Source of the DNA: the human T2T-CHM13v2.0 reference genome, Homo sapiens
Assembly (NCBI RefSeq): GCF_009914755.1
Contig: NC_060926.1
Reading direction: 5' to 3' (one strand)
Length of the DNA: 64,000 nucleotides
Within the stretch, counting starts at the first letter, position 1. The number at the start of each line of letters is the position of its first letter. A program made the position numbers and the translations under genes. The notes under the pieces are model-generated. The model was not told the DNA's origin, ran no database searches, and saw only the letters and a list, made by a program, of their open reading frames with translations. This document shows, one piece after another, positions 11,525 to 59,523 of the stretch.

Positions 11525-12007
<483 letters not shown>

Positions 12008-15050: not shown

Positions 15051-15519
15051 TGTAAGAGTTAAAGAAAGAGGAAAGAAACATGAAATGCAGCTTAACAGTT
15101 AAAGATGGGTTTATTTTAGAGAAATAAGCCTGAGAGGGGCTCCTGGCCAATTTTGGTGAGGAGCATTATCTTTTATAGACTAAGAGTATATATTAGTTTC
15201 AGGGTAGGGGGCTTATCACAAGCTTGGAATGTTTGTATGTTGGGGAGAAGTTTATAGCAGGGTTGGAATGTCTCTGGTCAGATGGGAGGTTATCTTGGGG
15301 CTGACATCTCTCTGGCCGAAGGGGACGTTATCTCAGGGCTGGCATGTCTCAGGTCAGGGAGGGGTTTGGAGTGTTTTTGGTTGGAGATGTTATTTGTTTT
15401 TTATGGTCATGCTGACCTTAGCCATTAGGCTGATGCCCTTTAGATTTAGGCGGTTTTTAATCAAGGTGAACTTTAGAATGACAGTGCTTGTCCAAGATGG
15501 CGATACTCCTGCTCTGTCA
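15051..15519 (-). mobile_element. ERV1-class solo LTR (LTR19-like), 469 bp
   Basis: TG...CA termini (minus strand TGACAGAGCAGGAGTATCGCCATCTTGGACAAG...TAACTCTTACA), minus-strand AATAAA near the 3' end, perfect TSD ATAGT at 15046-15050 and 15520-15524. Subfamily is from memory. Confidence 0.8.

Positions 15520-18074: not shown

Positions 18075-18126
<52 letters not shown>
18075..18126. repeat. (TG)n microsatellite, about 26 units
   Basis: Read directly. Confidence 0.97.
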
Positions 18127-26299: not shown

Positions 26300-26767
<468 letters not shown>

Positions 26768-26787
26768 TCAAGACAAGTGATAGCACA

Positions 26788-27818
26788 TATATTAGTCAGG
26801 GTTTTTCCAAGAAACCGAACCTATAGGATCTGTGTCTACAGCTTTATCTAGAAAGAGAGAGAAAGAGGAATTATTTTAAGGAATTTTCCTTAGTTCCTTA
26901 AATTAACTCCTAAATTATTTATTAATTCCTAAATTATGAATTCCTTAAAATAATTCCTCTGTTTTAAGGAATTATTCCTTAAAATAATTCCTCTGTTTTA
27001 AGGAATTATTCCTTAAAATAATTCCTCTGTTTTAAGGAATTATTCCTTAAAATAATTCCTCTGTTTTAAGGAATTATTCCTTAAAATAATTCCTCTGTTT
27101 TAAGGAATTATTCCTTAAAATAATTCCTCTGTTTTAAGGAATTATTCCTTAAAATAATTCCTCTGTTTTAAGGAATTATTCCTTAAAATAATTCCTCTGT
27201 TTTAAGGAATTATTCCTTAAAATAATTCCTCTGTTTTAAGGAATTATTCCTTAAAATAATTCCTCTGTTTTAAGGAATTATTCCTTAAAATAATTCCTCT
27301 GTTTTAAGGAATTATTCCTTAAAATAATTCCTCTGTTTTAAGGAATTATTCCTTAAAATAATTCCTCTGTTTTAAGGAATTATTCCTTAAAATAATTCCT
27401 CTGTTTTAAGGAATTATTCCTTAAAATAATTCCTCTGTTTTAAGGAATTATTCCTTAAAATAATTCCTCTGTTTTAAGGAATTAGCTCACACACAGTGGG
27501 GGCTGACAAATATGGAATCAACAGGGTGTTGGGTGGAGACCCATGAAAGACTTGATGTTGCAGTCTTGAGTCCTCAGGCAGTTTGGAAACAGAAGCCCCT
27601 CTTTCCCTGGGGACCTCTGTCTTTTTCTTATAAGGCCTTCAACTGTTTGGATGGGGCCTGCCCCCATCATGAAGAGTAATGTGCTTTACTCAAAGGCTGC
27701 TGCTTTAAATGCTAGTGACATGTGAAAAGTACCTTCACAGCAACATCTAGGCTAGGGTTTGACCAAACAACTGCGTACAATGGCCTAGCCAAGCTGACAT
27801 ATAAAATTAACTATCACA
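26788..27818 (-). mobile_element. MLT2 (HERV-L) solo LTR, interrupted by the 34-bp minisatellite
   Basis: Minus-strand start TGTGATAGTTAATTTTATATGTCAGCTTGGCTAGG; other end tattagtcagggtttttccaagaaac. Imperfect 5-bp TSD gcaca/gcata. Confidence 0.85.
26941..27484. repeat. Minisatellite: 16 perfect copies of the 34-bp unit TTCCTTAAAATAATTCCTCTGTTTTAAGGAATTA
   Basis: Read directly: 544 bp = 16 x 34. Palindrome TTTTAAGGAAT-T-ATTCCTTAAAA spans each unit junction. Confidence 0.97.
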
Positions 27819-27884
27819 GCATATGACAAAGAAGTTGAAGAAGTTTCCATCCTATAATAGGAACTCAAAGGGTAGTCACTGTAA

Positions 27885-28091
<207 letters not shown>

Positions 28092-53100: not shown

Positions 53101-54945
<1,845 letters not shown>

Positions 54946-59473: not shown

Positions 59474-59523
<50 letters not shown>
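59474..59523. repeat. (TG)n microsatellite, about 25 units
   Basis: Read directly. Confidence 0.97.

What the first reader, a model, noticed from the sequence alone, without database searches (positions are those of the whole stretch)
26941..27484. Perfect 16 x 34-bp palindromic AT-rich minisatellite, 427 bp upstream of MERTK exon 3
Seen: 16 identical units (8/34 GC) with no mismatches. Each junction carries TTTTAAGGAAT-T-ATTCCTTAAAA (11-bp arms, 1-nt spacer), separated by an invariant 11-nt linker (TAATTCCTCTG). Perfect homogeneity inside an ancient, diverged LTR implies a very recent expansion. Inference: it can form serial cruciforms in DNA (PATRR-like) and serial or long-range hairpins in the pre-mRNA near the exon 3 acceptor, so it is a candidate copy-number-variable splicing or expression modifier that short reads would miss. 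My unverified recollection is that the GRCh37/38 intron 2 is about 0.5 kb shorter than the 15,934 bp here, roughly 15 units, which would make this an expanded non-reference allele.
Basis: partly seen in the sequence, partly recalled or inferred. Interest (0 to 1): 0.8.

Follow-up and report, generated by a model that had tools for sequence, protein, structure and literature searches.

The report
Hairpin-prone AT-rich minisatellite in MERTK intron
A flawless run of 16 copies of a 34-base AT-rich unit sits deep in intron 2 of the human MERTK gene; it is a real tandem repeat of a known kind that grew out of an old retroelement, probably varies in length between people, and shows no sign of a function.

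Summary
Window 26940-27484 is a perfect period-34 tract (545 bp, 16.03 copies, no mismatch), ending 426 bases before MERTK exon 3. The unit occurs nowhere else in T2T-CHM13.

It lies inside an old dispersed LTR-like repeat. Each unit is a 21-nt inverted copy of the LTR's own segment at 26864-26884, then G, then a 12-nt direct copy. So the array arose by inverted duplication followed by tandem amplification.

Single strands fold far better than shuffles (DNA z -19, RNA z -25). The arms are only 11 nt, so it is not a PATRR. The closest known class is the AT-rich hairpin-forming minisatellites such as FRA16B and FRA10B, here at unexpanded size.

Two papers give hg19 coordinates that put intron 2 at about 15,419 bp (range 15,414-15,464), against 15,934 bp here. 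The difference is about 515 bp; 15 units are 510 bp.

Folding predicts no effect on the exon 3 acceptor. I found no paper on this repeat. My verdict is an ordinary, probably neutral and variable intronic VNTR.

The parts
26940..27484 (.). Perfect 34-bp x 16.03 AT-rich minisatellite (T2T-CHM13 chr2:112370940-112371484). Each unit is a 21-nt inverted copy of the LTR segment, then G, then a 12-nt direct copy of TTTTAAGGAATT.
26886..26939 (.). 54-nt degenerate AT-rich stretch (80% A+T) with decayed TTCCT(T)AAATTA-like repeats. Probably older, eroded units.
   Evidence: Local alignment to the array scores 17, against a shuffle mean of 10.2 (sd 2.1). 5 of 500 shuffles reach 17.
26864..26885 (+). Progenitor segment of the LTR, AGAGGAATTATTTTAAGGAATT. 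It is 22 of 22 complementary to 26939-26960, and its last 12 nt equal the direct part of each unit.
   Evidence: (pair I1)
26780..26885 (+). Left part of the host LTR-like dispersed repeat, which starts TG.
   Evidence: The left flank matches 5 of 11 paralogous loci at 69-86% identity; sequence.
27473..27818 (+). Right part of the host LTR-like repeat. It begins with the last direct TTTTAAGGAATT and continues AGCTCAC..., ending ...ATCACA.
   Evidence: Of 1989 candidates, 40 were scored; the 39 that are not the window's own copy are 72-78% identical, and most matches end at query 338-353. 11 of 11 fetched paralogs match.
27911..28011 (+). MERTK exon 3 (context only), 426 bases downstream of the array.
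   Evidence: Hub annotation; one search shows the ...tttgcag|CATAACC acceptor.

Best explanation
This is a locus-specific AT-rich minisatellite born inside an old LTR-like retroelement copy in MERTK intron 2.

Origin. A 21-22-nt piece of the LTR (AGAGGAATTATTTTAAGGAATT) was copied in inverted orientation next to itself. This probably happened by fold-back or template switching at the self-complementary AATT. The resulting 34-bp unit (inverted copy + G + direct copy) was then amplified head to tail.

Behaviour. Every unit carries both an arm and its complement, so each arm can pair with either neighbour or with distant units. Such slippery hairpins on the replication template favour slippage and unequal exchange. 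That keeps changing the copy number and keeps the copies identical.

Consequence. The most likely consequence is a neutral length polymorphism of the intron: about 1 unit in hg19 against 16 in CHM13. It has no dedicated function.

Shown: the anatomy, uniqueness in the genome, the inverted-copy origin of the unit, the folding potential, and the shorter intron 2 in hg19. Inferred: the template-switch step, the slippage mechanism, that the length difference lies in the array, and neutrality.
For: - The array is perfect.
- The 34-nt unit at up to 2 mismatches gives 15 forward and 0 reverse hits in 3.1 Gb, all at this locus; the control gives 0.
- The 23-nt palindrome at up to 1 mismatch occurs only here. 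Six singletons elsewhere have 2 mismatches; the control gives 1+1.
- The flank is a dispersed repeat: of 40 scored matches out of 1989 candidates, one is the window's own copy and the other 39 are 72-78% identical.
- In 10 of 10 paralogs printed (11 were fetched; L012 was left out because its match does not reach the junction), the motif or its remnant occurs once and runs straight into the GCTCAC-like continuation. None has an inverted copy or an array. The exact 12-mer is present in 3 of 10.
- Segment 26864-26885 is 22 of 22 complementary to 26939-26960. The unit equals the reverse complement of 26864-26884, then G, then 26874-26885.
- Decayed units lie at the 5' edge.
- Folding: ssDNA MFE -134.2 kcal/mol against shuffles -40.7 (sd 4.9), z -19.2. 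RNA -220.2 against -79.8 (sd 5.6), z -25.0. The centroid is nearly empty, meaning many equivalent registers.
- Two alternative local hairpins exist: DNA -6.6 and -7.2, RNA -7.3 and -11.2 kcal/mol.
- hg19 intron 2 is about 15,419 bp (15,414-15,464) against 15,934 bp here. The array is the only large tandem repeat in intron 2.
- 14 copies of the 33-bp FRA16B unit were unstable on replication in human cells (passages). A review states that this number of copies stalls replication forks in vitro (passages).
- The acceptor region of exon 3 is predicted to be unaffected.
- No Rfam family reaches its gathering score.
Against: - Only one haplotype could be read, so copy-number variation is not shown directly.
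- The hg19 length rests on two published coordinates. One has unknown padding; I inferred 5 bp from a 10-bp excess over the CHM13 distance from exon 3 to exon 7. The genome build of the other is also inferred.
- The place of the roughly 515-bp difference within the 15.9-kb intron is not shown, and 515 is not an exact multiple of 34.
- Neutrality is a default, not a result. No expression, chromatin, conservation or population data could be consulted.
- Each unit holds one AG preceded by 11 of 14 pyrimidines, which resembles a splice acceptor. It also holds three GGAA/TTCC cores: 16 GGAA and 32 TTCC in the array. A regulatory side effect is therefore not excluded.
- VNTR catalogues gave no row for the site. 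That fits a one-unit reference, but it is equally silent on variability.
Confidence: 0.78

Rival explanations
1. One reading: the array is a copy-number-dependent cis modifier of MERTK splicing or expression. Possible routes are pre-mRNA hairpins near the exon 3 acceptor, decoy acceptors, cruciforms, or arrays of factor-binding cores.
For: - The RNA folding potential is strong.
- There is one acceptor-like AG per unit, with 11 of 14 pyrimidines upstream, and 48 GGAA/TTCC cores in the array.
- MERTK has a known monocyte eQTL, rs7422195 (search listing and start of the abstract of PMC10752576 only).
- Another MERTK VNTR is reported as an expression-associated motif in pancreas (supplement row of PMC10234305).
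Against: - The array lies 426 nt from the acceptor, well outside the branch-point and polypyrimidine zone.
- In a partition-function fold of 26700-28030, 385.2 of 417.8 pairing mass of the array stays inside the array. Only 0.001 of 35.15 pairing mass of the acceptor region goes to the array. Acceptor pairing is 0.639 with 16 units and 0.639 with 1 unit.
- The AG is in an AAG context, which is weak (recalled knowledge).
- The hub table lists one transcript and no exon here.
- No paper links this repeat to any trait.
- The listed MERTK expression-associated VNTR is at hg38 chr2:112012208, about 67 kb away.
Confidence: 0.08
2. The array is essentially fixed at about 16 units in humans. The shorter hg19 intron would then be a deletion that arose in the cloned reference DNA, because hairpin-forming AT-rich repeats are unstable in E. 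coli. It would not be a natural allele.
For: - Palindromic AT-rich repeats undergo extensive deletion in wild-type E. coli (abstract).
- The FRA16B study measured a background instability of its constructs in E. coli (passage).
- The difference of about 15 units would leave a single unit, which is what recombination or slippage to completion gives.
Against: - The arms here are only 11 nt, far below the roughly 150-200-nt arms said to be almost unclonable (passage).
- Pure 16-copy arrays are generally polymorphic (recalled knowledge).
- Nothing here tests the clone.
Confidence: 0.1
3. It acts as a replication obstacle like FRA16B and FRA10B. At 16 copies it would already stall forks measurably in vivo, and larger alleles would make a rare fragile or rearrangement-prone site inside MERTK.
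For: - Unit size (34 bp against 33 and about 42 bp), AT-richness and hairpin potential are alike.
- A fragment with 14 perfect FRA16B units lowered replication efficiency and gave deletions and an expansion in HEK293T cells (passages). [quoted passage not shown]
Against: - Fragility is seen at more than 5 kb for FRA10B and at up to 2000 copies for FRA16B, whereas normal FRA16B alleles have 7-12 copies. This array is 545 bp.
- It is 76.5% A+T, against 91% for FRA10B.
- No fragile site or breakpoint cluster at this place turned up in the searches.
Confidence: 0.1
4. It is an assembly or consensus artefact of CHM13, with a wrong copy number or falsely homogenised units.
For: Perfect arrays are where consensus errors could hide. 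Only one assembly was seen.
Against: - At 545 bp the array is far shorter than the long reads used for T2T-CHM13 (recalled knowledge).
- Both junctions are unique sequence and read cleanly into the LTR.
- The published hg19 coordinates show an independent length difference that is close to a whole number of units.
Confidence: 0.02

Closest known systems
AT-rich minisatellites of the rare fragile sites FRA16B (33-bp unit) and FRA10B (about 42-bp unit)
   Same: Unit length is in the same range (34 bp). It is AT-rich and uninterrupted, and single strands are predicted to form hairpins. Copy number is near the normal range: FRA16B normal alleles have 7-12 copies, and a 14-copy fragment was the experimental model.
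   Different: It is less AT-rich: 76.5% against 91% for FRA10B. The unit is built from GGAA/TTCC-containing arms taken from an LTR. No expanded (kb-scale) allele and no fragility are known, and the locus is different. Sequence similarity to those units was not tested by alignment.
PATRRs (palindromic AT-rich repeats PATRR22, PATRR11, PATRR17)
   Same: It is AT-rich, of similar total length (545 bp against about 190-600 bp), and can fold back on itself. The whole-array fold-back pairs 440 of 545 nt.
   Different: A PATRR is one long, nearly perfect palindrome. Its extrusion depends on length and central symmetry, and a short central spacer greatly reduces it (abstract). Here the perfect arms are 11 nt and the longest quasi-palindrome is 23 nt at 96%. 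The fold-back is interrupted every 12-16 bp. The object is a tandem repeat, not a palindrome.
Ordinary intronic VNTRs catalogued from long-read assemblies, including expression-associated VNTRs
   Same: It is a head-to-tail array of a 34-bp unit in an intron, and its length probably differs between reference assemblies.
   Different: It is absent from the catalogue files I could search (some files were cut when stored). It is unusual in being 100% pure and in having a unit that is itself an inverted duplication.
Tandem repeats arising inside old LTR-type retroelement copies (MaLR/MLT1-type; the name is recalled and not tested here)
   Same: The array sits between two copies of the LTR's own TTTTAAGGAATT motif. 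In at least 8 of 10 paralogs the position just upstream carries various microsatellites, so this is a repeat-prone spot of the family.
   Different: None of the 10 paralogs has the inverted copy or an array. The unit is unique in the genome.

Membership tests
Minisatellite / VNTR | Head-to-tail tandem array of a unit of roughly 10-100 bp | tested here: met
   Period 34, 16.0 copies, 100% matches. 16 of 16 units are identical.
Minisatellite / VNTR | Copy number varies between individuals | tested here: inconclusive
   hg19 intron 2 is about 15,419 bp (15,414-15,464) against 15,934 bp in CHM13. The difference is 515 bp (470-520); 15 units are 510 bp. The place of the difference is not shown, and no other haplotypes were available.
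AT-rich fragile-site minisatellites (FRA16B/FRA10B class) | AT-rich unit of about 33-42 bp, uninterrupted | tested here: met
   34 bp, 76.5% A+T, no interruption. It is less AT-rich than FRA10B at 91%.
AT-rich fragile-site minisatellites (FRA16B/FRA10B class) | Secondary-structure formation by single strands | tested here: met
   In silico only: DNA MFE -134.2 kcal/mol, z -19.2, with 0 of 100 shuffles as good. Unit hairpins are -6.6 and -7.2 kcal/mol.
AT-rich fragile-site minisatellites (FRA16B/FRA10B class) | Expansion to several kb with inducible cytogenetic fragility | tested here: not met
   This haplotype has 545 bp. Fragility is reported above 5 kb (FRA10B) or at up to 2000 copies (FRA16B). 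Other alleles and fragility itself are not testable here.
PATRR | AT-rich tract of a few hundred bp | tested here: met
   545 bp, 76.5% A+T, against about 190-600 bp.
PATRR | Single, nearly perfect palindrome with long arms and central symmetry | tested here: not met
   The longest inverted pairs are 22-23 nt. Perfect arms are 11 nt. The fold-back has an interruption every 12-16 bp.
PATRR | Mediates recurrent constitutional translocations | not testable with these tools
   No breakpoint data. The literature searches found nothing for this locus.
Old LTR-type dispersed repeat (MaLR/MLT1-type, name recalled) | Many diverged copies across the genome with shared ends | tested here: met
   1989 candidates, of which 40 were scored; the 39 that are not the window's own copy are 72-78% identical and most end at query 338-353. 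The element reads TG...CA.
Old LTR-type dispersed repeat (MaLR/MLT1-type, name recalled) | Match to the curated family model (Dfam/Repbase) | not testable with these tools
   No repeat-family library was on hand.

The most novel reading that the evidence does not exclude
The array may be a common multi-allelic length polymorphism, about 1 unit in hg19 and 16 in CHM13, that SNP arrays and short reads cannot see. It might causally contribute to the strong MERTK cis-eQTL and multiple-sclerosis risk haplotype in monocytes or microglia. Possible routes are its 48 GGAA/TTCC cores acting as a dosage-dependent factor-binding platform, or a 0.5-kb self-pairing RNA or DNA segment slowing transcription or replication through intron 2.
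Probability: 0.05. Interest if true: 0.6.

Novelty: new member of a known kind. Interest (0 to 1): 0.25.

Why it matters
MERTK matters for inherited retinal dystrophy and for macrophage and microglial clearance of dead cells. It also carries an eQTL and a multiple-sclerosis association (listing and abstract starts only).

A 0.5-kb length difference between reference assemblies, 426 bases from exon 3, has practical uses. It helps primer and probe design, the reading of long-read or CNV calls in diagnostics, and fine-mapping, because such a repeat is poorly typed by short reads.

The anatomy is also a clean textbook case of how a minisatellite can be born: an inverted duplication of a 21-nt piece of an old LTR, then tandem amplification.

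Beyond that it is one of very many human VNTRs. Nothing here points to a function.

Tried and rejected
- **Main-text literature.** MERTK+VNTR gave 11 papers, none relevant. Four 19-nt pieces of the unit searched as text gave 0 papers. MERTK / tandem repeat / intron 2 gave nothing relevant among the 20 of 1,398 papers listed or the 25 of 65 listed; the 'intron 2' hits were other genes or the rat Mertk model.
- **VNTR catalogue supplements.** Bakhtiari 2021, Eslami Rasekh 2021 and Lu 2021 hold no 'MERTK'. Lu 2023 holds one MERTK row, at another VNTR, hg38 chr2:112012208-112012351. No chr2 row starts at 111943-111945 kb. Several files were cut when stored, and one file each could not be read, so these blanks are weak.
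- **Structural-variant lists.** Audano 2019 is not held by DOI. A PMC id I recalled for it was wrong and gave an unrelated paper. The supplements of Linthorst 2020 and Wu 2021 gave nothing.
- **Coordinate searches.** Most hits were DOIs or page numbers. Two were useful.
- **An independent human copy among contaminant contigs.** The unit gives 0 matches in genome contigs and 0 in viral contigs.
- **Rfam.** Nothing reaches gathering score. The mir-2363-like matches score 30 bits against a cut-off of 90, and the MIR2934 and K10_TLS matches are also sub-threshold; all were rejected as chance hits on AT-rich hairpins.
- **Splice-site scoring.** No scoring model was on hand, so only the sequence context is described.
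- **Rejected readings.** PATRR membership, a microRNA or other structured-RNA gene, and an assembly artefact.

Full report
**1.
Tandem Repeats Finder reports one array at 26940-27484: period 34, 16.0 copies, 100% matches, no indels, score 1090. It is the strongest tandem repeat in the 64-kb window; the next scores 235.

The 23-nt element TTTTAAGGAAT-T-ATTCCTTAAAA occurs at all 15 internal junctions, and the linker TAATTCCTCTG occurs 16 times. Shuffles give 0 matches against 30 observed (15 sites on two strands). There are 426 bases between the array and exon 3, and intron 2 is 15,934 bp.

**2. It is unique to this locus.**
In the whole T2T-CHM13 assembly (3.1 Gb), the 34-nt unit with up to 2 mismatches gives 15 forward and 0 reverse hits. 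All lie in this array, at chr2:112,370,940-112,371,484; the control pattern gives 0. The 23-nt palindrome with up to 1 mismatch is found only here. Six single sites elsewhere carry 2 mismatches, against a control of 1+1.

**3. The host is an old dispersed repeat.**
The right flank (27473-27850) has 1989 candidate relatives in the genome. Of the 40 scored, one is the window's own copy at 100% and the other 39 are 72-78% identical. Most of their matches end at query 338-353, which is window about 27818.

The right flank matches 11 of 11 fetched paralogs, and the left flank matches 5 of 11. The element reads TG... at about 26780 and ...ATCACA at 27818. From memory it looks like a MaLR (MLT1-type) LTR. 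No repeat library was available to test the name, and I built no consensus.

An Alu with an A23 tail lies directly upstream.

**4. How the unit was made.**
I printed 10 of the 11 paralogs; L012 was left out because its match does not reach the junction. In 10 of 10, the motif TTTTAAGGAATT or its remnant occurs once and runs straight into a GCTCAC-like continuation. The exact 12-mer is present in 3 of 10. None has an inverted copy or an array.

In the MERTK copy the motif is present at both edges of the repeat region, at 26874-26885 and 27473-27484. The LTR segment 26864-26885 (AGAGGAATTATTTTAAGGAATT) is 22 of 22 complementary to 26939-26960 (pair I1).

Each unit equals the reverse complement of 26864-26884 (21 nt), then G, then the direct 12-mer of 26874-26885.

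The 54 nt between the LTR segment and the array (26886-26939) look like eroded older units. Their alignment score is 17, against a shuffle mean of 10.2 (sd 2.1), and 5 of 500 shuffles reach 17. The fold-back or template-switch step is my inference. In at least 8 of 10 paralogs the spot just upstream carries various microsatellites, so this part of the family is repeat-prone.

**5. Age.**
The array has no CpG. I assumed a recalled human rate of 1.2e-8 substitutions per base per generation. The whole array then mutates at 6.5e-6 per generation. The waiting time to the first difference has a median of about 1.06e5 generations (about 3 Myr) and a 95% upper bound of about 4.6e5 generations (11-13 Myr).

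Perfect identity therefore shows the array is much younger than the LTR, whose copies differ by 22-28%. It does not show that the expansion is 'very recent'. Ongoing turnover by slippage would also keep the array pure.

**6. Structure potential.**
As single-stranded DNA the array folds to -134.2 kcal/mol, against shuffles at -40.7 (sd 4.9); z is -19.2 and 0 of 100 shuffles do as well. As RNA it folds to -220.2, against -79.8 (sd 5.6); z is -25.0.

The optimum is one long fold-back, but the centroid is almost empty, so many registers are equivalent. Limiting pairs to a 40-nt span still gives -116.7 (DNA) and -185.2 (RNA).

Each arm can pair with either neighbour:
- Across the 1-nt spacer: 10 bp with a 3-nt loop (DNA -6.6, RNA -7.3).
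- Around the linker: 12-13 bp (DNA -7.2, RNA -11.2).

A review puts the minimum stem for stable cruciforms at about 6 bp (passages), so extrusion of single small cruciforms is conceivable. The array is nevertheless not PATRR-like. PATRRs are single palindromes of about 190-600 bp. Their extrusion depends on length and central symmetry, and a short central spacer greatly reduces it (abstract). Here the longest inverted pairs are 22-23 nt.

**7. Splicing.**
I folded 26700-28030 as RNA with 16 units, and again with 1 unit. In the 16-unit fold, 385.2 of 417.8 pairing mass of the array stays inside the array. Only 0.001 of 35.15 pairing mass of the acceptor region (27861-27915) goes to the array.

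The mean paired probability of the acceptor region is 0.639 in both versions, with a mean change of 0.007 and a maximum change of 0.022. Each unit has one AG preceded by 11 of 14 pyrimidines, which makes it a weak decoy acceptor. No exon is annotated there in the hub table. No Rfam family reaches its gathering score.

**8.
A table in PMC13205176 gives MERTK c.436C>T, p.Gln146Ter, at Chr2:112687071 (passage). The build is not stated there. The value lies inside the hg19 range of MERTK given in PMC5800348.

Window 11930-11932 reads CAG, which is codon 146, and exon 2 ends at 11976. So c.482 is hg19 112,687,117.

Table 1 of PMC5800348 lists a deletion c.(482+1_483-1)_(3000+1_3001-1)del with 'hg19 coordinates of implicated exons' chr2:112702532-112786446. 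It also lists an exon 1-7 deletion ending at 112733054 (passage). The capture design was coding regions +/-50 nt, so the padding of these coordinates is uncertain.

The listed distance from exon 3 start to exon 7 end is 30,522, against 30,512 in CHM13 (27911 to 58423). That fits 5 bp of padding at each end, if introns 3-6 have no net indel.

This places the hg19 exon 3 start at 112,702,537 (range 112,702,532-112,702,582). hg19 intron 2 is then 15,419 bp (15,414-15,464), against 15,934 bp here. The difference is 515 bp (470-520), and 15 units are 510 bp.

This supports 'about 0.5 kb shorter'. The array is the only large tandem repeat in intron 2, which makes it the likely site. However, the place is not shown, and neither is the direction of change. 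The possibilities are:
- CHM13 expanded.
- The reference allele contracted.
- The reference clone suffered a deletion; AT-rich palindromes are unstable in E. coli (abstract).

**9. What is in print.**
I found no paper on this repeat. The supplements I could search from four VNTR catalogues hold no row for it. One other MERTK VNTR, at hg38 chr2:112012208-112012351, is listed as expression-associated in pancreas. Some files were cut when stored and two files were unreadable, so these blanks are weak. They would also be expected if the reference holds only one unit. Two further supplement sets gave nothing.

**10. Comparison and verdict.**
The closest known kind is the AT-rich hairpin-forming minisatellite class of FRA16B and FRA10B.
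- FRA16B has a 33-bp unit, 7-12 copies in normal alleles and up to 2000 when expanded. A fragment with 14 perfect copies replicated less efficiently and gave deletions and an expansion in HEK293T cells (passages). A review states that 14 copies are enough for fork stalling in vitro (passages).
- FRA10B has a unit of about 42 bp, is 91% A+T, and is fragile above 5 kb (passages).

The MERTK array shares unit size, purity and folding potential. It is less AT-rich (76.5%), is of unexpanded size, and has no known fragility.

I file it as a new member of a known kind: a real, locus-specific, probably variable and probably neutral intronic minisatellite with a neatly readable origin. Its interest is modest.

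Noticed in passing
window 53612-53825: A 214-bp TCC-rich polypyrimidine tract (period 3 or 16, about 80% matches, 10% indels) lies in MERTK intron 6, between exons 6 and 7. Sequence of this kind can form triplex DNA (recalled knowledge).
   Followed up: no
window 18075-18126 and 59474-59522: Two perfect dinucleotide microsatellites, (GT)26 in intron 2 and (TG)24.5 in the intron after exon 7. Both are likely polymorphic and are a possible source of the few bases by which the hg19-CHM13 difference departs from 510.
   Followed up: no
window 26459-26767: An Alu element (sub-threshold SRP RNA matches at 26459-26575 and 26595-26740) with a pure A23 tail at 26745-26767 abuts the 5' end of the host LTR-like repeat.
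   Followed up: partly
loci L010-L020 (paralogous LTR-like copies), about 80 nt upstream of the aligned motif: In at least 8 of 10 paralogs, the position just 5' of the TTTTAAGGAATT motif carries a different simple repeat (GA, TA, CA or TTGA runs). This part of the repeat family is a general hot spot for repeat formation.
   Followed up: partly
outside the window (hg38 chr2:112012208-112012351, near the 3' part of MERTK): Another MERTK VNTR, with a 37-nt motif, is listed as an expression-associated motif for MERTK in pancreas in the supplement of PMC10234305: nominal p 4e-22, slope -0.53.
   Followed up: no
window 27032-27424: Repeated sub-threshold Rfam matches to microRNA precursor models (mir-2363 at 30 bits against a cut-off of 90, and MIR2934), one per two or three units. 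They are taken as chance hits on AT-rich hairpins.
   Followed up: yes
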